A stretch of 64,000 nucleotides of DNA from a virus. The position numbers and the translations under genes are program-made. The notes under the pieces were generated by a model. That model searched no databases, had not been told where the DNA came from, and saw only the letters and a program-made list of their open reading frames with translations. Location: the IMG/VR virus record IMGVR_UViG_3300009550_000008. One strand, 5' to 3'. Below are positions 27,508 through 43,309 of the stretch, one piece after another. Numbering within the stretch: the first letter of the stretch is position 1; each line of letters opens with the position of its first letter.

Positions 27508-28962
27508 ATGGCTGACGAAATTTATATAAACACAGGGTCGACTTTTCAACAACCCTATCAGGGTCAAGTACCAGCAAACGCTCAACAACCAGTTATCAGG
27601 AACATTGATGGAACATATCCAGCAAATGCTCAGAGTCCGTTCACTTATCAGAACAGACAACCTTTTACATATCAAGATCAGAAAAACGCTAGACAGCCTG
27701 TAATTTACGATCATCGATCTCCGTTTACATATAATAGACAAGGTCGATCTCCATTTACATATCAACATCCAGTAATTAGAGATGGACAACAACCAAACAT
27801 ATATCAGGTACAAAGTCCGTTCACTTATAATAGAACAGGTCAATCGCCATTTACATATCAACATCAGTCACCTAGTACATATCAGTTCCAAGCAAATAAA
27901 CAACAACCGACTATTAAACAACAGTCTTACAATGATGTAAATGTAAATAGACAAACAACATATACAGTTGATGCTCGAACTCCTATACAAGAACCTCATA
28001 TTGGTAATAGACAAGTTGGTGTTCAAGGGCCGTACATAGGTGGTAACCAACAACCCCATTCCCACTACGAACCTGAATTGAATTCGTGGTTGAATTTTAG
28101 AGTTCCTCAGTCTACTCAAGCTCAAGGGCCGTATATAACACCACAAACATATGGGTTTCAAGCAAATGCAGTTAATGTGCAGACCAGTCGACAACAACCA
28201 GTAAGTTCACAGAGTCCATTTACATTTTCAGGTCAATCACATGAGACTGTATGGAACCAACAGATTGGTGAACCGATTCCTTACAGGGTTCCAGTAATCA
28301 ATCAACCAGCAAGACAGCCTGTTAGTTCACGAAGTCCATATAGACAACCTAGTATTACATTGACCAATGTTGGTAATGCAAGACAACCTTATAGACAACC
28401 CGTACAACAACCATCTATCTATCAACATATTAGACAGGTTGCTTACGATCATAGATCACCGTTTACATATCCTAGGACAGATGTGAATGCACAACAACCT
28501 AATATAAGGGATGCACAACAACCATATCCTTACATTGCAAACGCACAGGAGAGTAATGAGAGGAATGCAAGGAGTCCTTTCACTTACGATCATAGACAAC
28601 CTAGTAATATACAACAAGCATATCCTTACATTGCAAACGCACAAGAACCTAACATTAGGGATAAACAAAGTCCATTCACTTATGCACATCCAGTGAATGC
28701 ACAATCTCCATATATTGCAGATGCAAGATCACCTAGTACATATCAGGAATCTTATACTTACACCTACGATCATAGATCACCTTTCACATATCAGGTGAAT
28801 TATTCAACTACAAGACCCATCGGGCCTCTTGCAAAAGTTAAAGGTGTCTTTATAAACGATGGTGGTACAGTTAAAAAAGCACAGACTGTTCATGTGAATG
28901 ATAGTGGAACTGCAGAAAAAATACATGATGCAGTGCCTAATGCACAGTTCTTAAAAGGATAA
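27508..28962 (+). CDS. Pro/Gln/Tyr repeat fibre protein with internal mirror symmetry (484 aa)
   Basis: SPFTY, QQP, YPYIANAQ and YDHRSP repeats; N and C arms have reversed unit lengths. Confidence 0.8.
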   Translation: MADEIYINTGSTFQQPYQGQVPANAQQPVIRNIDGTYPANAQSPFTYQNRQPFTYQDQKNARQPVIYDHRSPFTYNRQGRSPFTYQHPVIRDGQQPNIYQVQSPFTYNRTGQSPFTYQHQSPSTYQFQANKQQPTIKQQSYNDVNVNRQTTYTVDARTPIQEPHIGNRQVGVQGPYIGGNQQPHSHYEPELNSWLNFRVPQSTQAQGPYITPQTYGFQANAVNVQTSRQQPVSSQSPFTFSGQSHETVWNQQIGEPIPYRVPVINQPARQPVSSRSPYRQPSITLTNVGNARQPYRQPVQQPSIYQHIRQVAYDHRSPFTYPRTDVNAQQPNIRDAQQPYPYIANAQESNERNARSPFTYDHRQPSNIQQAYPYIANAQEPNIRDKQSPFTYAHPVNAQSPYIADARSPSTYQESYTYTYDHRSPFTYQVNYSTTRPIGPLAKVKGVFINDGGTVKKAQTVHVNDSGTAEKIHDAVPNAQFLKG

Positions 28963-32534: not shown

Positions 32535-32768
32535 ATGGCAGATACAAAAAATTTCAGAGTAGAGTATGGAATTAACAGTGGTTCTAGTGAGGTGATAAAT
32601 TCAAGTGGGAAAGTTGTAGCATCTGCTCTATCAGCAGTCGATTCAGACGATATAACAGAAGGTTCGTCTAATACATTTTTTACTACAACCCGTGTGAATA
32701 ACCACCTAGCAGATTCCGGCTCGGCAAAGACAATTAATAATGCTACAATAGATGGAGGAACATTCTAG
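32535..32768 (+). CDS. Small fibre linker protein ending in DGGTF
   Basis: NFRVEYGI N-terminus, DDITEGSSN.FFT, DGGTF; CATAAATA at 32484. Confidence 0.7.
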   Translation: MADTKNFRVEYGINSGSSEVINSSGKVVASALSAVDSDDITEGSSNTFFTTTRVNNHLADSGSAKTINNATIDGGTF

Positions 32769-34603
32769 TGGCTGCACAGAATTTTAAAATCAAGAACGGT
32801 TTAACGGTAGGTACTACTGAGGTAATCGATAGTTCAGGTGACTTAACAAATGCAGCTTTCGGAACTGCAGCTAAAGAAGCAATTGACGATCAAGTAAATA
32901 CTCTAATGACCGCAGGTTCGGGAATCTCATTATCATATGACGATTCAGCAGGAACATTAACAGTAACAAGAGATGCAGAAACAGGAGACATCGAAGGAGT
33001 TGTTGCTGGTACAAACTTAAGTGGTGGTGGTACATCGGGTACAGTCACATTAAATGTAGAACAAGAATTAACAAACTCAACTGCACCATTTTACCATAAG
33101 ATCGCTGTAACAGTAGTCAGTGATAGTGGTAACAAATATGCAATGGATGGAAATACATCAGGTGGTGTTGCAGTTAGATTGATGCCTAATATAGTTTATA
33201 GGTTCGATCAATCAGACAGTTCAAACGCAAACCATCCATTAAGATTTTCAGAAACCTCAGATGGAACCCACAACAGTGGTGCAGAAATATCTGATGGTTA
33301 TCTAATATACAACAAAGTCGGAACACCAGGCTCGGCGGGTGCATACACAGAAGTTGCATTTGACCAAGAAAGTAACGACACATTATACACATACTGTTCT
33401 GCTCATAGTGGTATGGGACAGACAGTCACATTAGGATATGCTGGTGACATTACAGGTGTTACTGCTGGAGACGGTCTCTCAGGTGGTGGTGCAACTGGAG
33501 CGGTATCACTTGCATTAGATTTAAGTGAACTAACAGCTGCAGTGGTAGACCCTGCGACAGATAGTATTGCAATTATCGATGCTGGAGATGGTTCATCTAA
33601 GAAAGAAGCAATCGCAGACCTTGCAACGATGCAAGCTGGAGACGGACTAAGTGCATCAAGTGGTGCATTTGCAGTAAATGTAGATGACAGTTCAATAGAA
33701 ACAAGTTCAGATTCACTACAAGTCAAAGCTGGTGGTGTTACAAATGCAATGTTAGCAGGTTCAATTGCAAACGCAAAACTTGCAAATTCAGCAATCACAA
33801 TTGCTGGAAGTTCTACTTCATTAGGTGGAACAGTTCTTGCAGACACCGATGCATTAACAGAAGGTTCTTCAAACTTATATCTAACAAACGAAAGAATTGA
33901 TGACAGAGTTGCAACTCTTATAGTTGGTGGTTCAAATATCACATCAACTTATGATGATGCAGCGGGTACATTAACACTTGCTGGTTCGGCTGCATATGCA
34001 GACTCAGATGCAAGAGGTGCTATATCGGTAACCGATTCAGGTGGAGATGGTTCACTTGCATACAATAACTCTACAGGTGTTATCACATATACAGGCCCAA
34101 GTGCATCAGAAGTAAGAGCTCATATAACTGCTGGAACTGGTATTGGAATCAGTTCAGGTGAAGTAAGTATCGGGCAAGCAGTTGCAACATCAAGTAATGT
34201 TCAATTTGCAAACTTAACACTTTCAGGTGACTTAACAGTAAACGGAACAACCACAACAGTAGCAACAACAAACTCAGTGATTTCAGATGCATTGATAGAA
34301 CTAGGAAATGGAACATCAGGTTCACCAGCAAATGATGCTGGTCTAGTTATCGAAAGAGGAAGTTCAGACAATGTATTCATTGGTTGGGACGAAAGTGCAG
34401 ATGCAATCACATTCGGTACAGGTTCATTTACAGGTGCAGATACAGGTAACTTGACAATAACACCTAGTGCAGTAAACACAGGTGCAGTGACAATTACAAA
34501 CGCAACAAATAGTGGTGGTACAGCAAGGAATGTTTATCAGTCTACATCAGCTCCGACAGGTGGAGATGGTGCAGTTGGTGATTTATGGATTTTATACTCT
34601 TAA
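32768..34603 (+). CDS. Tail fibre/adaptor protein with cupredoxin-like insert (611 aa, GTG start)
   Basis: NFKIKNGL N-terminus, HPLRFS...YCSAHSGMG, LTEGSSNLY, C-terminal TSAPTGGDGAVGDLWILYS. Confidence 0.75.
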   Translation: MAAQNFKIKNGLTVGTTEVIDSSGDLTNAAFGTAAKEAIDDQVNTLMTAGSGISLSYDDSAGTLTVTRDAETGDIEGVVAGTNLSGGGTSGTVTLNVEQELTNSTAPFYHKIAVTVVSDSGNKYAMDGNTSGGVAVRLMPNIVYRFDQSDSSNANHPLRFSETSDGTHNSGAEISDGYLIYNKVGTPGSAGAYTEVAFDQESNDTLYTYCSAHSGMGQTVTLGYAGDITGVTAGDGLSGGGATGAVSLALDLSELTAAVVDPATDSIAIIDAGDGSSKKEAIADLATMQAGDGLSASSGAFAVNVDDSSIETSSDSLQVKAGGVTNAMLAGSIANAKLANSAITIAGSSTSLGGTVLADTDALTEGSSNLYLTNERIDDRVATLIVGGSNITSTYDDAAGTLTLAGSAAYADSDARGAISVTDSGGDGSLAYNNSTGVITYTGPSASEVRAHITAGTGIGISSGEVSIGQAVATSSNVQFANLTLSGDLTVNGTTTTVATTNSVISDALIELGNGTSGSPANDAGLVIERGSSDNVFIGWDESADAITFGTGSFTGADTGNLTITPSAVNTGAVTITNATNSGGTARNVYQSTSAPTGGDGAVGDLWILYS

Positions 34604-34623: not shown

Positions 34624-35910
34624 ATGGCGTCAGGTAACCAAAAGGTTAAAACCCCTTCGGGTTGGAATGCAACTCAAGGTGCTTGGGTAAAAACAGGCAG
34701 TACAACTTGGAAGGCAGTAGATCAGATTTATATCAAGACTCCCGATGGATGGAATGATGCATCAGGACAAGAAGCAACGCAAATTCCTTACCCTTACATT
34801 GCAACTGGACAGGAACCAAACATTAGACAAACTATTGTTACATATCCTTACATTGCAAATGCTCAAGAACCAAATATAAGACAAACCATTGTTCCCTATC
34901 CTTACATTGCAAATGGTCAGGAACCTAACCAAAGATCAAGACAGATTTCTTATACCTATCAGGCACAGGCAAGACAACCAGTTGAATATCAATATGGTTC
35001 ACCGTTTACATACGATCATAGAGAACCTAATACATATTCAATAAGATCACCGTTTACATACGATCATAGGTCACCGTTCACTTATAATAGAACTGGAAGA
35101 AGTCCTTTTACTTATAATAGAACTGGTAGGACACCATTTACATATCAGGCACCAGCAAGACAACCTGCGACATATCAGGCTCCTGCTCGACAACCTTTTA
35201 TTGCAAATGCAAGACAACCGAATACATATCAAGCACCAGCAAGACAACCATTTATTGCAAGTGCAAGACAACCAGCAACATATCAAGCACCTGCGAGACA
35301 ACCGTTCATTGCATCTGCGAGACAACCTGCGACTTATCAAGCACCAGCAAGACAACCGTTCATTGCAAGTGCAAGAAACCCGTTCACTTATCAAGCAAGA
35401 ACACCAGTGTTTATACCAGGCGGTGGTGGTGGTTGCTTCAGTTCCGATATGCTTATTCTTATGGGTGATAATAGACTTATGCCTATCAGTGAAGTTCAAG
35501 CTGGAGACTTTGTATTATCATTTAACTTTGAAACTAACTTACTAGAATCTAGAGAAGTTGGTGCAATGATGGAACCAAGAGAAGATATACAACTATATAA
35601 TGTTAAACTTTCAAATGGTAACCACATTGAAATATCAGGTGGTCACCCAGTATCTACATCAAGAGGATGGAGATATATTAATGAGGATGCATGGAAAGTC
35701 GAAGTTGAAGCTGGAATTGCAGACTTCGAATGTGCAGAGGGTGAATTTGAAGTGGGTGACGAACTATTCTATTTCGGAGAACAAGAAGTGGTCGTTGAAA
35801 GTATAACTAAACAAGAAGAACTACAAACTACTTACAACATTGTATTAGTAGAAGGTAATGAAAACTATTTTGTGAATGGTGTTCTAGTTCATAACGGAGA
35901 GAAGAAGTAA
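34624..35910 (+). CDS. Repeat fibre chain A with C-terminal Hint (intein-like) autoprocessing domain
   Basis: Trp-rich N-terminal domain, 23 Pro-terminated repeats, GGGGG linker, then CF...SGGH...TYNI...NYFVNGVLVHN-GEKK. Confidence 0.88.
   Translation: MASGNQKVKTPSGWNATQGAWVKTGSTTWKAVDQIYIKTPDGWNDASGQEATQIPYPYIATGQEPNIRQTIVTYPYIANAQEPNIRQTIVPYPYIANGQEPNQRSRQISYTYQAQARQPVEYQYGSPFTYDHREPNTYSIRSPFTYDHRSPFTYNRTGRSPFTYNRTGRTPFTYQAPARQPATYQAPARQPFIANARQPNTYQAPARQPFIASARQPATYQAPARQPFIASARQPATYQAPARQPFIASARNPFTYQARTPVFIPGGGGGCFSSDMLILMGDNRLMPISEVQAGDFVLSFNFETNLLESREVGAMMEPREDIQLYNVKLSNGNHIEISGGHPVSTSRGWRYINEDAWKVEVEAGIADFECAEGEFEVGDELFYFGEQEVVVESITKQEELQTTYNIVLVEGNENYFVNGVLVHNGEKK
35167..35382 (+). 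repeat. 4 x 54-bp coding tandem repeat (ATYQAPARQP-FIASARQP)
   Basis: Visible in DNA and protein, with synonymous variation between copies. Confidence 0.9.
35434..35895 (+). other. Hint domain (Cys271-Asn424); +1 residue is Gly
   Basis: Block A Cys, block B SxxH, terminal His-Asn; no homing endonuclease insert. Confidence 0.85.
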
Positions 35911-36602
35911 TGGCTCAACAACCGTATCCAGCTAGTGCCCAACAACCGTTTACTTATAACGCGCAGAATCCATTTACATATCCTGCGAATTATCAGAATC
36001 CGTTCACTTATAACGCACAGAACCCGTTCACATACCCAGCAAACTATCAGAACCCGTTCACATACAATGCACAGAATCCGTTTACTTATCCAGCAAACTA
36101 TCAGTCACCGTTTACGCATAATGCTCAGAATCCGTTTACTTACCCAGCAAACTATCAGAGTCCATTTACATATCCAGCAAATGCACAACAACCTTATCCG
36201 TATATTGCAAATGCACAACAACCGTATCCGTATACTGCAGTAGGACAACAACCTAATATTAGGGCTTCACAACAACCTGCGATTAAAGATAGACAATCAC
36301 CGTATATTGCAGCTGCACAGGAACCAAATATTAGAGATTTACAGAGTCCGTTTACATATATGAATCAGGGTCGAGTACCTCAGACATATATTCACCAGTC
36401 TCCATTTACATATTCAAGACAAGGTGATACACAACAGTCTTATGACCATAGAAGTCCATTTACTTATCAGGTTATTGCAAATACTCAGAACAACTATGAC
36501 CATAGGTCTCCGTTCACATATGCAAGACAGGGACGAACTCCTGAACCAAGATGGGATGGTGTGGTTACACAACAGTGGCCTGCGACTCCAATTACCTCTT
36601 AA
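35910..36602 (+). CDS. Repeat fibre chain B, mirror partner of chain A (230 aa)
   Basis: TAATG overlap with chain A; 23 Pro-terminated repeats. Confidence 0.85.
   Translation: MAQQPYPASAQQPFTYNAQNPFTYPANYQNPFTYNAQNPFTYPANYQNPFTYNAQNPFTYPANYQSPFTHNAQNPFTYPANYQSPFTYPANAQQPYPYIANAQQPYPYTAVGQQPNIRASQQPAIKDRQSPYIAAAQEPNIRDLQSPFTYMNQGRVPQTYIHQSPFTYSRQGDTQQSYDHRSPFTYQVIANTQNNYDHRSPFTYARQGRTPEPRWDGVVTQQWPATPITS
35949..36164 (+). repeat. 4 x 54-bp coding tandem repeat (FTYNAQNP-FTYPANYQNP)
   Basis: Visible in DNA and protein. Confidence 0.9.
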
Positions 36603-36623: not shown

Positions 36624-38189
36624 ATGTTAAAGACCATAGAAAACCTTGAACAAGCACGCAACTTTGAATTTAATACTCAGGGTATTGTTACCCAAGGATA
36701 TCAACAAGAAGCAATACGATTAGCAAATTCATATGATTTTGCAAGACCTAATAATGAAACGAGTGTTGATTGTTGGCAAGTGATGAAGTATGCCTTTGAG
36801 TCTCAACCACCTATAAAAAAGGTTCATTGGGAACAGATAAAAGAAAGGATAAATGATAATACATTACATACATTTGGACAATTACATCACAATTCTGTAC
36901 AGTATCTTAGATATGTTCAAGATGGTTGGACAGAAAAACTAAGACCCGACCATCCTATTGGTGGTGGTTCGATGGACTTTATGAATTATGATGATGAGTA
37001 TCAATGGTTATCAACTGTTAGTGACCATCCTGATTGTAATCAATTAAATCCAAGAGAAGAGAATACTCTAAGTTCATGTTATTATCACGCTGCAAAAGCA
37101 CACTGGTTAGTAAACAACATTCAGAAAGAAGGATTGAGACATCCTATCCAAGGACATACACATAAAAGTACAAGTGCCTCAGAATTTGGATTGACTATTC
37201 ATCCAGGCTCGATCAGATGTAGAGTAATGGAGACCCTTGATGACAATGAACTATATGTTTTAGTTACTGATTTTGAAAATGTATTTGATGAAGTAGAACC
37301 TTTTACATTCGAAGAGATGATGGATATGTGGGGTGAGTTAGGTAATAACAAAGGTAATCTATCTGCAATATTCGTTGATGGTAAAATAGAATGGTCACTA
37401 TCATCTACAGCTGGACTTGATTTTAGAGATGAAGTTTTTGATTTCAATAGAAAGGTAACTAAGTTAACGAAGAAAAAACCAGTTAACATATATCTTGGAT
37501 ACGATTCATCACATAGTGAGGTATACGATGTTGCAGAAGCTTCTATTCATCATTCTATAGAGAAATGTAAGAGTGGTGGTGTATCACATGAATTCTTTAA
37601 TGACTATAAGATAGAAGTCAAGAAACTTGACATTAATGCAATTTCAGAGTATACTAGACCTTACGCAAATCAATCTACTGAGTTTACTTACAGTAGATTC
37701 CTCATTCCATATCTAGAGAACTATGAAGGATTCAGTTTCTTTATAGATGACGATTACATATGGCAATGGTCACCTACATCCTTATTCTATTTCTTAGACC
37801 CTGAACATGCAATTGCTTGTGTTCAGTATCAGTTCGATCACCATGATGAAACCAAAATGGATGGTGAGAAGAATGTATCATATCCTAAAAAACTTTGGTC
37901 AAGTATGATGATCTTTAACAATGGTCATGAGGATTGTAAAAAATTAACACCCGAAGTTGTGAATACTGCAAGTGGACAATACTTACATCAGTTTGAATGG
38001 ACAGATCAGATCAGTGAAATCCCAGGCCATAAGATTGCAACAGAAGGATATGATAGTGAGTTATTAAAGACTCACCATGCAGTTCATTATACAAGAGGAG
38101 GCCCATGGATAAAAGACATGGATTATTCCAACATAAATATGTTAGAACTGTATAAACAGATGAAAAACAAGTTGCCAAAAAGCAACTAA
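36624..38189 (+). CDS. Fusion of a ParB/Srx-like domain and a GT-A glycosyltransferase (CDI/GT8-like)
   Basis: IYLGYD, QSTEFTYSRFLIPYL, FIDDD (DxD), YPKKLWSSMMIFN, YLHQFEW, VHYTRGGPW. Confidence 0.85.
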   Translation: MLKTIENLEQARNFEFNTQGIVTQGYQQEAIRLANSYDFARPNNETSVDCWQVMKYAFESQPPIKKVHWEQIKERINDNTLHTFGQLHHNSVQYLRYVQDGWTEKLRPDHPIGGGSMDFMNYDDEYQWLSTVSDHPDCNQLNPREENTLSSCYYHAAKAHWLVNNIQKEGLRHPIQGHTHKSTSASEFGLTIHPGSIRCRVMETLDDNELYVLVTDFENVFDEVEPFTFEEMMDMWGELGNNKGNLSAIFVDGKIEWSLSSTAGLDFRDEVFDFNRKVTKLTKKKPVNIYLGYDSSHSEVYDVAEASIHHSIEKCKSGGVSHEFFNDYKIEVKKLDINAISEYTRPYANQSTEFTYSRFLIPYLENYEGFSFFIDDDYIWQWSPTSLFYFLDPEHAIACVQYQFDHHDETKMDGEKNVSYPKKLWSSMMIFNNGHEDCKKLTPEVVNTASGQYLHQFEWTDQISEIPGHKIATEGYDSELLKTHHAVHYTRGGPWIKDMDYSNINMLELYKQMKNKLPKSN

Positions 38190-38200
38190 TATGTTATAAT
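38172..38200 (+). promoter_or_regulatory. Sigma70-type promoter TTGCCA-17-TATAAT with extended -10 TG
   Basis: TTGCCA 38172-77, TG 38192-93, TATAAT 38195-200. Confidence 0.7.
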
Positions 38201-38209
38201 GGAGATATT

Positions 38210-38779
38210 ATGAATTGTTTAATATACGATCAATGGGGTAATCTTTTTATAAGAAAACCTAATGGACTTGAGTGGAGACATGAAAATGTCGATAGACCTG
38301 CTTTAGGTTTTGACTTTGATGTTCTTATATACGATGATGTTGAATTTAAAATTGAAAAATTTGAAGACGGCAAAGAAATGGAAGAACAGGAAAAGCAACC
38401 CTTAACTGAAACCGATAAAGATGCCATCGAGGCATATATTGAAAATGCTGAACCCCCTAGTGGTGTCAGTCTAAACCAACAATATGTTGGGAGAATTGCA
38501 GAAGTTGTTAGAAACAATGTTATGCATCAATGTGAGAAATATGGATTCGATGATATGATCGAAGTATTGATGGCTGCAAGAGAAGGTTCTGCACATCCAT
38601 ATCGATCAAATGCTAGAAGAGCATTAGAATATTCAGATGCAGTAGCAAATGTTGCAGAGGGTGTATTCAGAGAGATTCAAATCACTAGAGAAGATACACT
38701 TAAACCTTTAGATGAATACATAATGCAAATACCACCTCCGTCTATTGGTGTTGGTAGAGATCAGTCTGTAGTAGGTTAA
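38210..38779 (+). CDS. Hypothetical protein; possible tail-fibre assembly chaperone-like
   Basis: C-terminal KYGFDD.......HPYRSNARRALEYSDAV resembles fibre-chaperone-like helical domains (weak). Confidence 0.5.
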   Translation: MNCLIYDQWGNLFIRKPNGLEWRHENVDRPALGFDFDVLIYDDVEFKIEKFEDGKEMEEQEKQPLTETDKDAIEAYIENAEPPSGVSLNQQYVGRIAEVVRNNVMHQCEKYGFDDMIEVLMAAREGSAHPYRSNARRALEYSDAVANVAEGVFREIQITREDTLKPLDEYIMQIPPPSIGVGRDQSVVG

Positions 38780-38780
38780 C

Positions 38781-39497
38781 ATGCCCTCATTCGACTCGAT
38801 CAATGTCGAACACATTGAGTCCCCTTTTTACATCGAAGACATGCCTTTGGGTAATACTGTCTATGTTATAGATGATTATCTAGAGTCTTCACTTCATAAA
38901 GCCATGCATAGACATTTAGATCAGTGTTCATGGCAAAAGACTAATCAAGTCGATTATAGGGGCCCGAATCGAGGAGGACTTCCTAATCATTCTTTATGGG
39001 GATGTTCTTTTATAGTAGGTGAAAAACAAAATGATGGATATCTAAATGGTGCATCAGGATGTTCTAATTATTTAATTAGATGGTTTAATAGAAGACTAGA
39101 AACAGACTTTGGTTTTGCATGGGTAAGGTTTCAATATGCTGGTGCAAACTCTCAAACCCATGGTCAACATGGAACATGTCATGCAGATTGTCAGAAAGAT
39201 GATGAATGGAATCTTTCCTTTCTTTATTATACAAATAGATTTTGGAATCCACACTGGGGTGGTAAGTTAAGATTCTATAGTGAAAATAGAGAAGGTGGAA
39301 TCTTAGAACAAATGGATGATGTCGAAATAGGTTCCATTGATTTCAAACCAAATCGTCTCTTAATGTTTGATGGAAGAATACAACATGGTGCAGAAGCTCC
39401 ATCAGAAGATGCACGATATATAGATAGAAGATCAATTGTCGTTAGAGGAGACGAGATCGAGTTATTAAATAGGGGAGATAGATATGCCTACAATTGA
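38781..39497 (+). CDS. 2OG-Fe(II) oxygenase (prolyl-4-hydroxylase-like)
   Basis: HAD (HxD), WNPHWGG.L.F, FKPNRLLMFDG.IQH, terminal R.S. Confidence 0.85.
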   Translation: MPSFDSINVEHIESPFYIEDMPLGNTVYVIDDYLESSLHKAMHRHLDQCSWQKTNQVDYRGPNRGGLPNHSLWGCSFIVGEKQNDGYLNGASGCSNYLIRWFNRRLETDFGFAWVRFQYAGANSQTHGQHGTCHADCQKDDEWNLSFLYYTNRFWNPHWGGKLRFYSENREGGILEQMDDVEIGSIDFKPNRLLMFDGRIQHGAEAPSEDARYIDRRSIVVRGDEIELLNRGDRYAYN

Positions 39498-40410
39498 GTT
39501 TAGAACATATAATAAACCATCGTTTGAAATGTTCAGACCAGTTGCAGCTAAATCTATGCAACCTGAATGGTGGAAGAAACAAAAGATTCGTGTAGATCAT
39601 CGTGGTCGTGTTGCACAAACAATAAGGTCTTGTCCTTCAATGCAAGACTGGTTAACAATGGGATATTATATTGTTTCAAGTGTTGATATCCCAATTAGAA
39701 ATGGATTAGATTGGAACTGGCCTAGTGGAGAAAGATTCTCTACGGATGAAGAAATTCCAGTACATTCTAGATCACACCCGTCTGCTCAAATGCAAGATTC
39801 TATAGAGTATTTGGGAGACGATGGCCCAGTTAAAGATGCATTTAAAATATCATCTTACTGGAATATGAAAACCCCGCCGGGCTATTCTGTTTTATTTTTA
39901 GACCCTTTCCTGTTTCAGAATAAATACTTTGCATGTTGGCAAGGAGTGATTGATACTGATGAGTTCAATGTTAATTTGGACAATGCACACATCATATTCT
40001 ATCCTAAAGTAAACCATTCATTTGTTATACCAGCTGGTACTCCACTGGTACAAGTGTTCCCATTTAAGAGGGAAGAATGGACATCAACATATTTTTTTCA
40101 AGAGCACTCAGATTGGCATAAGAATCATGGAACACATGAGAAGTCAATGCAAAAATGGCAAAGGAGTTTGGAATTGGTAGATGCAGATGGAACACCTAAT
40201 GAGAAGATCAACATCGGTGGTTATAGGAATGCTAAAATTTGGAAACCAAAGAGTAGATTCTTTGATAAACCCGAAGAAGTAAACCCACCACCTGAATGTC
40301 CAATGCACAGATCAGAAGAACAGCTGGAAATGGACTTTAATGATAAACAACGAGAGTTGACAGATTTAAATTGGGACGGTTCGGAGTCAAAGAAAATAGA
40401 TAGAGATTAG
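39484..40410 (+). CDS. Conserved hypothetical protein (DUF6065-like), often next to phage 2OG oxygenases
   Basis: TIRSCPSM.D....GY, KTPPGYSVLF..P, GVIDTD, IPAGTPLVQVFPFKRE.W. Confidence 0.6.
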   Translation: MPTIEFRTYNKPSFEMFRPVAAKSMQPEWWKKQKIRVDHRGRVAQTIRSCPSMQDWLTMGYYIVSSVDIPIRNGLDWNWPSGERFSTDEEIPVHSRSHPSAQMQDSIEYLGDDGPVKDAFKISSYWNMKTPPGYSVLFLDPFLFQNKYFACWQGVIDTDEFNVNLDNAHIIFYPKVNHSFVIPAGTPLVQVFPFKREEWTSTYFFQEHSDWHKNHGTHEKSMQKWQRSLELVDADGTPNEKINIGGYRNAKIWKPKSRFFDKPEEVNPPPECPMHRSEEQLEMDFNDKQRELTDLNWDGSESKKIDRD

Positions 40411-40413
40411 ATT

Positions 40414-41094
40414 ATGTCAGTTAGATTATTATTTCCAACATTACTTTTTGAGTATAACTTGTTGGAAGAAGGGTTAGTTACTCAAACATATTTGGATGAA
40501 TTAAAAGCAGATATGGATGCAATGAGAATGAAAGACCCAGTGGGAAGACAGATTTCTAATGCATATACTGGTTGGCAATCGAATGATGGTTGTGAGTCTA
40601 GGCCTGCATGGGTAAAAATGATGAGAATCATTAAAGAGAAATTCAACCAAGAGATACTTCCTTTTAGTGGAGTGGATACATCAAAATTCCAAGTTAGAAT
40701 GGGTAATTGTTGGGCAAATGTAAATGATAGAGGTGCATGGAATAAACCACATGGTCACAATGGATGTTGGTGGAGTGGTGCATTATATATTAATGCAGAA
40801 GGTGACGAAGGAGATTTCGTTGCAATCAATACAGACCCTAAAGTATTAAGTGACTTCCCAGCTGCACCTAGGTTTAGAGAGAATCATTGTATAAGACCTA
40901 TCTCAGGAACACTTCTTTGTTTCCCTAGTGGTCTACTACATATGGTTGAACCTAATGCATCAAGTAATGATAGATACAGTGTTGCATTTAATATGAATAA
41001 CGAAAGGTTAAGTGGGTCACCTCAAGAGACAGCAATTCCTATAGATGACAACTGGAATAAATTCGATATAGAAGAAGGCGAAGTAAAGAGATAA
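40414..41094 (+). CDS. Putative 2OG-Fe(II) oxygenase (TIGR02466-like)
   Basis: WANVN..G.WNKPHGH, WSGALY, FPSGLLHMVEPN, RYSVAFN. Confidence 0.85.
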   Translation: MSVRLLFPTLLFEYNLLEEGLVTQTYLDELKADMDAMRMKDPVGRQISNAYTGWQSNDGCESRPAWVKMMRIIKEKFNQEILPFSGVDTSKFQVRMGNCWANVNDRGAWNKPHGHNGCWWSGALYINAEGDEGDFVAINTDPKVLSDFPAAPRFRENHCIRPISGTLLCFPSGLLHMVEPNASSNDRYSVAFNMNNERLSGSPQETAIPIDDNWNKFDIEEGEVKR

Positions 41095-42234: not shown

Positions 42235-43092
42235 ATGCCTACGAATGTTTACTTTAATCATGCTGTAAAGACAGAACAGCACCTCTATGAGGACTTAGTC
42301 GTTGAATCATTACGATTCTACGGACACGATGTCTTATATCTACCTAGAACAATTGTAGAAGAGGATACTATTTTCACCGAGGATGTACAATCCACATTCG
42401 GTGACGCCTATTCGGTTGAAATGTATCTCGAAAATACAGAAGGGTTCGAAGGAGACGGAGACCTTGTTTCTAAGTTCGGTGTACAGATACAAGAGGAAGC
42501 AACATTCATTATATCTTTAAGAACATGGGAGAGATTCATTTCCCTAGATTCTAACCTTGCAGTATCACTAAGACCTAACGAAGGGGATTTAATTTACTTC
42601 CCACTTACAGGTTCATTATTTGAAATCAGATTCGTAGAAGACCAAGACCCATTCTTCCAGTTAGGAAAGATGTTTGTATTCAAGATGAGATGTTCATTGT
42701 TCGAATACTCAGGAGAAGATTTCGATACTGGTACAAGTGCAGACTTGGTAGAAGCAGATCAAGCTTACACAATCGAATTGACCATGACTGGTTCAGGAAA
42801 CTATACTCATGGAGAGAATTTAACTACTGTAATTGATTCAGTTACACATACAGTTGGAGAGGTTGTACTATGGCAACCAAACGCAAACAAACTTACAATT
42901 AAGGATAACACTAAGACACTACAAGTTGGAGATACACTAACAGGTGCATCATCTACAACTGCAAGAGCAATTGGAAGTATCGTGGATGTTCAATCATTCC
43001 ATAATCTAGCTTCTGCTCAGAATGTAGAGTTCGAAGAGAAGGATAGTTCATATCTAGACTTTAGTGAAGTGAATCCATTCGGTGAACCATAA
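42235..43092 (+). CDS. gp14: Neck protein gp14
   Basis: EQ.LYEDLVVESL..YG, SKFG, RPNEGDLIYFP, PFFQLGK, DFSEVNPFG. Confidence 0.93.
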   Translation: MPTNVYFNHAVKTEQHLYEDLVVESLRFYGHDVLYLPRTIVEEDTIFTEDVQSTFGDAYSVEMYLENTEGFEGDGDLVSKFGVQIQEEATFIISLRTWERFISLDSNLAVSLRPNEGDLIYFPLTGSLFEIRFVEDQDPFFQLGKMFVFKMRCSLFEYSGEDFDTGTSADLVEADQAYTIELTMTGSGNYTHGENLTTVIDSVTHTVGEVVLWQPNANKLTIKDNTKTLQVGDTLTGASSTTARAIGSIVDVQSFHNLASAQNVEFEEKDSSYLDFSEVNPFGEP

Positions 43093-43093
43093 A

Positions 43094-43309
43094 ATGATAG
43101 AAAAAATAATAGCAGAAACGATTGGTTGTGACCAAGACGCAGTAAAAGATAAATCAAATTTTGTAAAAGATTTAGGTGCAGACTCATTAAATATTGTTGA
43201 ATTGGTCATGGAAATTGAAAAAGAATTTGATATAGAAGTTCCTGATGATGATGCAGAAACATTACATACAGTTGCAGACTTGAAACAGTATATTGAGGAC
43301 AACTCATAA
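43094..43309 (+). CDS. acpP: Acyl carrier protein
   Basis: DLGADSL (phosphopantetheine Ser), VELVM.IE.EFDIEVPD..AE...TV.D. Alternative GTG start at 43082. Confidence 0.9.
   Translation: MIEKIIAETIGCDQDAVKDKSNFVKDLGADSLNIVELVMEIEKEFDIEVPDDDAETLHTVADLKQYIEDNS

What the first reader, a model, noticed from the sequence alone, without database searches (positions are those of the whole stretch)
35407..35924. Non-splicing Hint domain at the junction of the zipper: candidate trans-ligation or tip conjugation
Seen: the last repeat of chain A is followed by VFIP-GGGGG-C, then a complete Hint domain ending VHN-GEKK-stop. The +1 residue is Gly and the C-extein is only 4 aa. Established: cis-splicing needs Cys/Ser/Thr at +1. 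Hedgehog and bacterial intein-like Hints form a thioester at the N-terminal Cys that is resolved by an outside nucleophile or water. Inference: in the mirror register the activated Gly270 lies beside the N-terminus of chain B (Ala-Gln-Gln-Pro after Met removal). The Hint could (a) ligate A to B into one hairpin like the single-chain paralog at 27508, (b) attach a small molecule, lipid or host surface amine at the distal tip, or (c) act as a self-removing cap.
Basis: partly seen in the sequence, partly recalled or inferred. Interest (0 to 1): 0.9.

Follow-up and report, generated by a model that had tools for sequence, protein, structure and literature searches.

The report
Self-excising Hint cap on phage fibre
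One chain of a two-chain fibre in an uncultured marine T4-like phage ends in a real intein-like (Hint) self-cutting domain plus a four-residue lysine tail; it most likely cuts itself out and may re-attach that tail rather than join the two chains, and I found no paper describing this in phage fibres.

Summary
Observation confirmed. Chain A (34624-35910) has five Gly, a complete Hint (Cys271-Asn424), then GEKK-stop. Three independent DNA runs show the same stop. The fold is closest to type-A BIL domains (Tetrahymena BIL2, CthBIL4). Gly-1, Cys1, block-B His and His-Asn are invariant in 41 relatives; dN/dS is 0.10-0.24.

The mirror register puts chain B's start about 6 residues from Gly270, but A-B ligation is unlikely. 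The A/B split holds in every locus where B was fetched, 64 of 78 loci lack the Hint, and B starts with Pro in 5 of 9 Hint-bearing types and has no nearby Cys or Lys.

All 41 tails carry a Lys (about 10 expected), and Hint-less alleles read like the re-ligated product.

Best reading (0.5): an optional, horizontally swapped cap that excises itself and re-attaches its tail through a Lys side chain (as BIL2 does) or the +1 amine. Cleavage alone is the main rival. No chemistry is shown. The scan noted this module before on other DNA, once in this family; I found no paper on it.

The parts
34624..35910 (+). Chain A, 428 aa: head domain, Pro-punctuated repeat strand, Gly5 linker, Hint, tail
34624..34767 (+). 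Conserved N-terminal head (aa 1-48), probably docks on the upstream carrier fibre (inferred)
   Evidence: 77-87% identical across Hint-bearing relatives over the first 62 aa
34768..35418 (+). Repeat strand of chain A (aa 49-265), mirror partner of chain B, net charge about +16
35419..35433 (+). Gly5 linker; Gly270 is the -1 acyl donor
   Evidence: Gly at -1 in 41 of 41 variants; length polymorphic in reads
35434..35895 (+). Hint domain, 154 aa, type-A BIL-like, acidic (about -20): Cys271, block-B His341, F4 Asn405, His423-Asn424; no homing endonuclease
35896..35910 (+). Four-residue C-extein (Gly-Glu-Lys-Lys) and stop; also carries a GGAG ribosome site for chain B
   Evidence: Lys present in 41 of 41 family tails; stop spanned by independent runs
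35910..36602 (+). Chain B, 230 aa, mirror-image repeat strand; separate gene in all loci
32768..34603 (+). Upstream carrier tail-fibre protein (context)
   Evidence: PHROG tail fibre hits
27508..28962 (+). Paralogous zipper, single-chain here, no Hint; split and sometimes Hint-capped in relatives (context)

Best explanation
The Hint is an optional, swappable, self-excising cap on the distal end of fibre chain A. Step 1 (inferred from conserved residues and known Hint chemistry): Cys271, helped by His341, turns the Gly270-Cys271 bond into a thioester. Step 2 (inferred): an amine from the protein's own short tail resolves the thioester. The likelier amine is a Lys427/428 side chain, giving an isopeptide as in Tetrahymena BIL2; the alternative is the Gly425 alpha-amine freed by Asn cyclisation, as proposed for type-A BILs. 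Step 3 (inferred): Asn424 cyclises and the Hint leaves. Some molecules will simply be cleaved. The mature tip is chain A ending in a Gly-rich linker plus a tiny Lys-bearing peptide, paired non-covalently with chain B and resembling what Hint-less relatives encode directly. Shown here: anatomy, fold, conservation, distribution, register. Not shown: any chemistry, or what benefit the cap gives (transient acidic cap on an Arg-rich unpaired strand, or near-neutral mobile module).
For: Gly-1, Cys1, His341, His423 and Asn424 are invariant in 41 variants whose Hints are 29-59% identical in the sampled pairs, one close pair aside; dN/dS 0.10-0.24. An invariant His-Asn before a 4-residue tail makes most sense if the tail has to be released from the Hint (inference). 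Lys is present in 41 of 41 tails against about 10 expected, mostly at +3 to +6, and in the last two residues in 37 of 41 against a 14% background. In a separate metagenome sample that includes unrelated carriers, 27 of 27 short tails contain Lys. In the wider family +1 is Lys in 139 of 234 domains. Closest solved structures are BIL2 (Lys isopeptide splicing, PMC8616854) and CthBIL4. Hint-less alleles keep an in-frame Gly/Pro linker plus a Lys or Glu-Pro end of similar length to the joined product; Hint-less L042 is sister to Hint-bearing L003. The window's Hint groups with L052, while its downstream gene groups with L002/L008/L078 (AU p 0.028 and 8e-5).
Against: No biochemical data. Cleavage dominates over splicing in characterised type-A BILs (PMC4031507, PMC7664689), and one review says they cannot ligate (PMC7765530). 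Hint-less alleles of the window's clade also keep a terminal Lys, so that Lys may be selected for a reason unrelated to Hint chemistry. In this family the Lys is fixed relative to the C-terminus, not to the Asn, and can be over 25 residues away (L014, L056). The tail is unresolved in the model (pLDDT 46). The block-F His is not conserved. No benefit is demonstrated.
Confidence: 0.5

Rival explanations
1. Cleavage-only cap. The thioester is resolved by water or cytoplasmic thiols, the Hint is discarded, and chain A ends in free Gly270. The tail Lys has another role, such as termination context or a modification site.
For: Cleaved products dominate in type-A BILs (PMC4031507, PMC7664689). The terminal Lys persists in Hint-less alleles. 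The acidic Hint (-11 to -25) could shield the basic strand until B pairs.
Against: Does not explain the invariant His-Asn, or Lys in short tails on unrelated carriers. Hint-less strands are equally basic. No Hint-less allele ends simply in the Gly run.
Confidence: 0.23
2. Tip conjugation in trans. The thioester transfers chain A onto an outside amine or alcohol (another virion protein, a lipid or small molecule, or a host-surface amine), as Hedgehog does with cholesterol and BIL2 does with Ras.
For: The Hint occupies the same distal slot that a ~150-aa adhesin-like domain fills in 21 loci. It is swapped between lineages like a host-interaction module. BIL2 conjugates in trans (PMC8616854). Family-specific conserved residues Met316, Pro318, Arg319 and Trp349 could form a binding site.
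Against: No sterol-recognition-like domain follows the Hint. A trans reaction does not need His-Asn or a tail Lys. The thioester would have to survive the cytoplasm and the virion's lifetime (inference).
Confidence: 0.13
3. The Hint stays on the mature fibre as a structural or binding tip domain and is processed slowly or not at all.
For: Same slot as globular tip domains. Paralogs P0098, P0117 and P0119 end in a Hint that lacks His-Asn.
Against: All catalytic residues and Gly-1 are invariant at this locus.
Confidence: 0.09
4. One reading: the thioester is attacked by chain B's N-terminal amine, joining A and B into one covalent hairpin.
For: B residue 2 faces A264, within reach of a Gly5 linker. 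A single-chain paralog exists.
Against: 64 of 78 loci have split A/B with no Hint. B starts with Pro in 5 of 9 Hint-bearing types, with the same mix in Hint-less types. No Cys or early Lys in B. Spacing varies from 2 to 11 residues. The paralog's centre is a long irregular region, not an A-end/B-start turn. The invariant His-Asn and tail Lys are left unexplained.
Confidence: 0.05

Closest known systems
BIL2 of the Tetrahymena thermophila BUBL1 locus (PDB 6Y75/6TMM; PMC8616854)
   Same: Best structural match (TM 0.79, 23% identity). Cys...His-Asn Hint with no endonuclease; BIL2 resolves its thioester with a C-extein lysine. Ubiquitin-Hint polyproteins are among the top relatives (P0147).
   Different: BIL2 sits between folded ubiquitin-like domains in a ciliate and is Zn-linked. 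Here it is at the end of a phage fibre with a 4-residue C-extein; Lys use is inferred only.
Type-A bacterial intein-like domains (Amitai 2003, Dassa 2004, Aranko 2013; CthBIL4, PDB 2LWY), cited through PMC4031507 and PMC7664689
   Same: Top sequence hit for the family profile (E 3e-14). Cys1, C-terminal His-Asn, non-nucleophilic +1, no endonuclease, insertion in a variable region.
   Different: Described in bacterial proteins. This one is phage-encoded, C-terminal, has a Gly run before and a Lys tail after, and has an extra acidic helix.
Hedgehog Hint-SRR (Hog) domain
   Same: Gly|Cys junction and a thioester that can be resolved by a non-canonical nucleophile.
   Different: Hog has a sterol-recognition region and uses only the first acyl shift. 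Here His-Asn is invariant and no acceptor domain follows; the structural match is weaker (TM 0.67).
Class-1 mini-inteins (Ssp DnaB, gp41-1)
   Same: Same fold and blocks A, B, G; filled and empty alleles exist.
   Different: No Cys/Ser/Thr at +1 (40 of 41); host is a variable fibre tip, not a conserved enzyme site.
Intramolecular chaperones of tail fibres (Ser-Lys dyad; PMC12403621)
   Same: C-terminal, self-released domain on a phage fibre.
   Different: Unrelated fold and chemistry; those drive trimer folding, whereas this cap is absent in most relatives.

Membership tests
Type-A BIL | Hint fold with Cys/Ser at position 1 and block-B His | tested here: met
   Cys271 and His341 invariant; AF2 and Foldseek
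Type-A BIL | C-terminal His-Asn | tested here: met
   61 of 61 aligned Hints; the set was selected on having His-Asn, but an HMM search of all loci found no degenerate Hint at this locus
Type-A BIL | No Cys/Ser/Thr at +1; no homing endonuclease | tested here: met
   40 of 41 non-nucleophilic; Hints are 152-168 aa
Type-A BIL | Located in variable regions of non-conserved proteins | tested here: met
   Optional module at a hypervariable tip
Type-A BIL | Reaches the curated PT-HINT (PF07591) threshold or nests among described BILs | tested here: inconclusive
   PT-HINT 16.9 bits against 27.7; best PDB profile hit is 2LWY; no tree with described BILs was built
Type-A BIL | Demonstrated N- and C-terminal autocleavage with minor splicing | not testable with these tools
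   needs expression and MS
BUBL/BIL2 | Flanked by ubiquitin-like domains | tested here: not met
   flanks are a repeat strand and a 4-aa tail
BUBL/BIL2 | C-extein Lys forms an isopeptide | tested here: inconclusive
   Lys in 41 of 41 tails; bond not testable here
Class-1 intein | Cys/Ser/Thr at +1 | tested here: not met
   +1 is Gly here; one Ser in 41
Class-1 intein | Inserted in a conserved site of a continuous host protein | tested here: not met
   stop after 4 residues, spanned by independent runs
Hedgehog Hog domain | Sterol-recognition region after the Hint | tested here: not met
   tail is 4 aa here, 4-29 aa in relatives

The most novel reading that the evidence does not exclude
Phage fibres use a Hint domain as an ATP-free isopeptide ligase. 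The Gly270 thioester is captured by a lysine side chain, normally the tail's own and possibly one on a neighbouring virion or host protein. That would be a lysine-dependent form of protein splicing so far described only for a ciliate protein, used across a very large family of virion tips.
Probability: 0.35. Interest if true: 0.8.

Novelty: new variant of a known kind. Interest (0 to 1): 0.6.

Why it matters
Hint chemistry has not, in the literature I could search, been described for phage tail fibres, yet the profile finds 7,459 clusters at E<1e-10. If the tail Lys is the nucleophile, this is a compact natural isopeptide ligase of biotechnological interest and a new way to mature virion tips. 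This family offers a natural control set: orthologous fibres with the Hint, without it, or with an adhesin-like domain in the same slot. That makes the question of what BIL domains are for directly testable. The more exciting reading, two gene products stitched into one hairpin, is probably wrong.

Tried and rejected
Complex prediction of A172-428 with B2-96 gave no verdict (score 0.00) and is not used either way. AF2 of the single-chain paralog was uninformative (pLDDT 32).

No deposited phage genome has a chain-A homologue; only weak hits to helicase inteins appeared. The window's own assembly is not held, so other Hints in this genome were not searched. Dassa 2004 could not be read and is cited through reviews.

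A frameshift or false stop joining A and B was rejected. One contig joint skipping 35400-35968 at 88% likeness was set aside as a probable repeat match. RNA runs held only small shares and say nothing on expression.

I considered that the terminal Lys is only a by-product of B's ribosome site. It is weakened because the Lys persists with spacers of 14-41 nt and on unrelated carriers. Charge shielding as the purpose is not supported, because Hint-less strands are equally basic.

The upstream carrier did not reject a window+L052 clade (AU 0.40), so the swap rests on the downstream gene and the Hint tree; these groups were named after seeing identities, and trees were quick-mode. The gp13 tree did not finish.

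Full report
Setting. The window is the structural region of a T4-like marine myovirus. Its major capsid protein is 68% identical to Methylophilales phage Melnitz and 65% to Pelagibacter phage HTVC008M, and near-identical DNA occurs in marine metagenomes of many studies. The host is unknown. The finding lies at the end of chain A (34624-35910), between a carrier tail fibre and chain B (35910-36602).

Observation. Pfam Intein_splicing passes its cut-off and there is no endonuclease. The AF2 model is confident (pLDDT 92). Its best matches are Tetrahymena BIL2 (TM 0.79), DnaB mini-inteins and CthBIL4, and a family profile ranks CthBIL4 and BIL2 first by sequence. Contigs from three independent DNA runs span the junction with no listed indel, so A and B are separate genes.

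Signs of activity. Among 41 distinct family Hints, Gly-1, Cys1, block-B His and His-Asn are invariant, and +1 is Gly 14, Phe 11, Met 6, Leu 3, Ile 2, Tyr 2, Arg, Lys, Ser 1 each. dN/dS against three relatives is 0.10, 0.15 and 0.24. Block F has Asn or His at F4 and no conserved His further on. The domain is maintained as if both the N-terminal acyl shift and Asn cyclisation matter. That is inference; no reaction was observed.

Geometry. The antiparallel register matches 26 of 31 prolines (next best 17, parallel 14) and holds in dozens of relatives. B residue 2 faces A264, so Gly270 lies six residues beyond.

Against A-B ligation. Of 78 IMG/VR loci with chain A, 14 carry the Hint, 12 end in a short Lys tail, 31 in a short Glu-Pro-type tail and 21 in a ~150-aa globular tip domain; A and B are separate genes wherever B was fetched. 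The pair evidently works without a covalent link. B's first residue after Met is Pro in 5 of 9 Hint-bearing types, Ala in 3 and Ser in 1, with a similar mix in Hint-less types. B has no Cys and no Lys before residue 126. The distance from B's start to Gly-1 ranges from 2 to 11 residues. The paralog at 27508 is single-chain in some genomes and split in others, and its centre is a long irregular region rather than a joined A-end and B-start.

The premise that splicing needs Cys/Ser/Thr at +1 is incomplete. Type-A BILs can splice, with cleavage dominating, by attack of the freed +1 amine on the thioester (PMC4031507). BIL2 splices through a C-extein lysine to give an isopeptide and can also conjugate in trans (PMC8616854). 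Here every one of 41 tails contains a Lys against about 10 expected, and 37 have it in the last two residues against a 14% background. In a separate metagenome sample that includes unrelated carriers, 27 of 27 short tails contain Lys. In the wider family +1 itself is Lys in 139 of 234 domains, many in tandem arrays. Hint-less short alleles read like the joined product, a Gly/Pro linker and an in-frame Lys or Glu-Pro end of similar length, and none stops at the Gly run.

Evolution. On a tree of the downstream gene, Hint-bearing alleles are scattered: six changes at minimum, three forced by well-supported branches. The window sits among Hint-less alleles, and Hint-less L042 is sister to Hint-bearing L003. 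The window's Hint groups with that of L052 (53% identity, support 97), while its downstream gene groups with L002/L008/L078. The alternative groupings are rejected at AU p 0.028 and 8e-5; the upstream carrier is uninformative. The module is thus optional, repeatedly lost and at least once swapped. These were quick trees on few sequences.

Mechanism. Most likely (0.5) the Hint forms the Gly270 thioester, an amine of its own tail captures it (Lys side chain more likely than the +1 amine), and Asn cyclisation frees the domain, leaving a tip like that of Hint-less relatives. Cleavage alone (0.23) is the main rival: it is the usual outcome for BILs, and Hint-less alleles also keep the Lys, which shows the Lys can be kept for other reasons. 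Conjugation to an outside nucleophile (0.13) is suggested only by the Hint sharing a slot with adhesin-like domains. Retention as a tip domain is 0.09 and A-B ligation 0.05. The benefit is unexplained.

Novelty. It works like a type-A BIL and meets that family's sequence features, but misses the PT-HINT threshold and its activity is untested. It is not a class-1 intein, a Hog domain or a BUBL. Five literature searches found no description of Hint domains ending phage fibres; subscription journals are largely outside that library. Earlier scan notes report the same Gly-Hint-Lys cap in at least 65 genomes, once in this zipper family; these are unchecked leads, not support.

Noticed in passing
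L048-L076 (e.g. L049:10001-11365, L057:10001-11545): In 21 loci a ~145-160 aa Gly/Pro/Tyr-rich globular domain replaces the Hint at the tip of chain A and is followed by an extra 86-100 aa ORF before chain B. Several genomes use a near-identical domain at both zipper loci.
   Followed up: partly
P0098, P0117, P0119; L052:478-2238: Split versions of the 27508 paralog also end in Hints: after a tip domain, either with His-Asn-Lys-stop (L052) or lacking His-Asn altogether (the three proteins). L019 is a close Hint-less counterpart ending at the same position.
   Followed up: partly
window 36624-41094: Conserved GT8-like glycosyltransferase and 2OG-Fe(II) oxygenase cluster directly behind chain B. 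Short Hint-less tails end in Lys or Pro, both typical hydroxylase targets, so the tail might be a modification site. Untested.
   Followed up: no
P0121-P0264: Many close relatives of this Hint occur as tandem arrays of 2-8 domains joined by Lys-Gly-Gly-type linkers; full Lys splicing would give an isopeptide-linked peptide chain.
   Followed up: no
window 35701-35745 (Hint aa ~349-366): Family-specific acidic helix at the usual endonuclease insertion site, with invariant Trp349; a Met-x-Pro-Arg motif (316-319) is also nearly invariant. Possible binding surface.
   Followed up: no
window 43082-43309: Acyl-carrier-protein-like ORF (75 aa, judged by eye) between the gp14 and gp15 neck genes.
   Followed up: no
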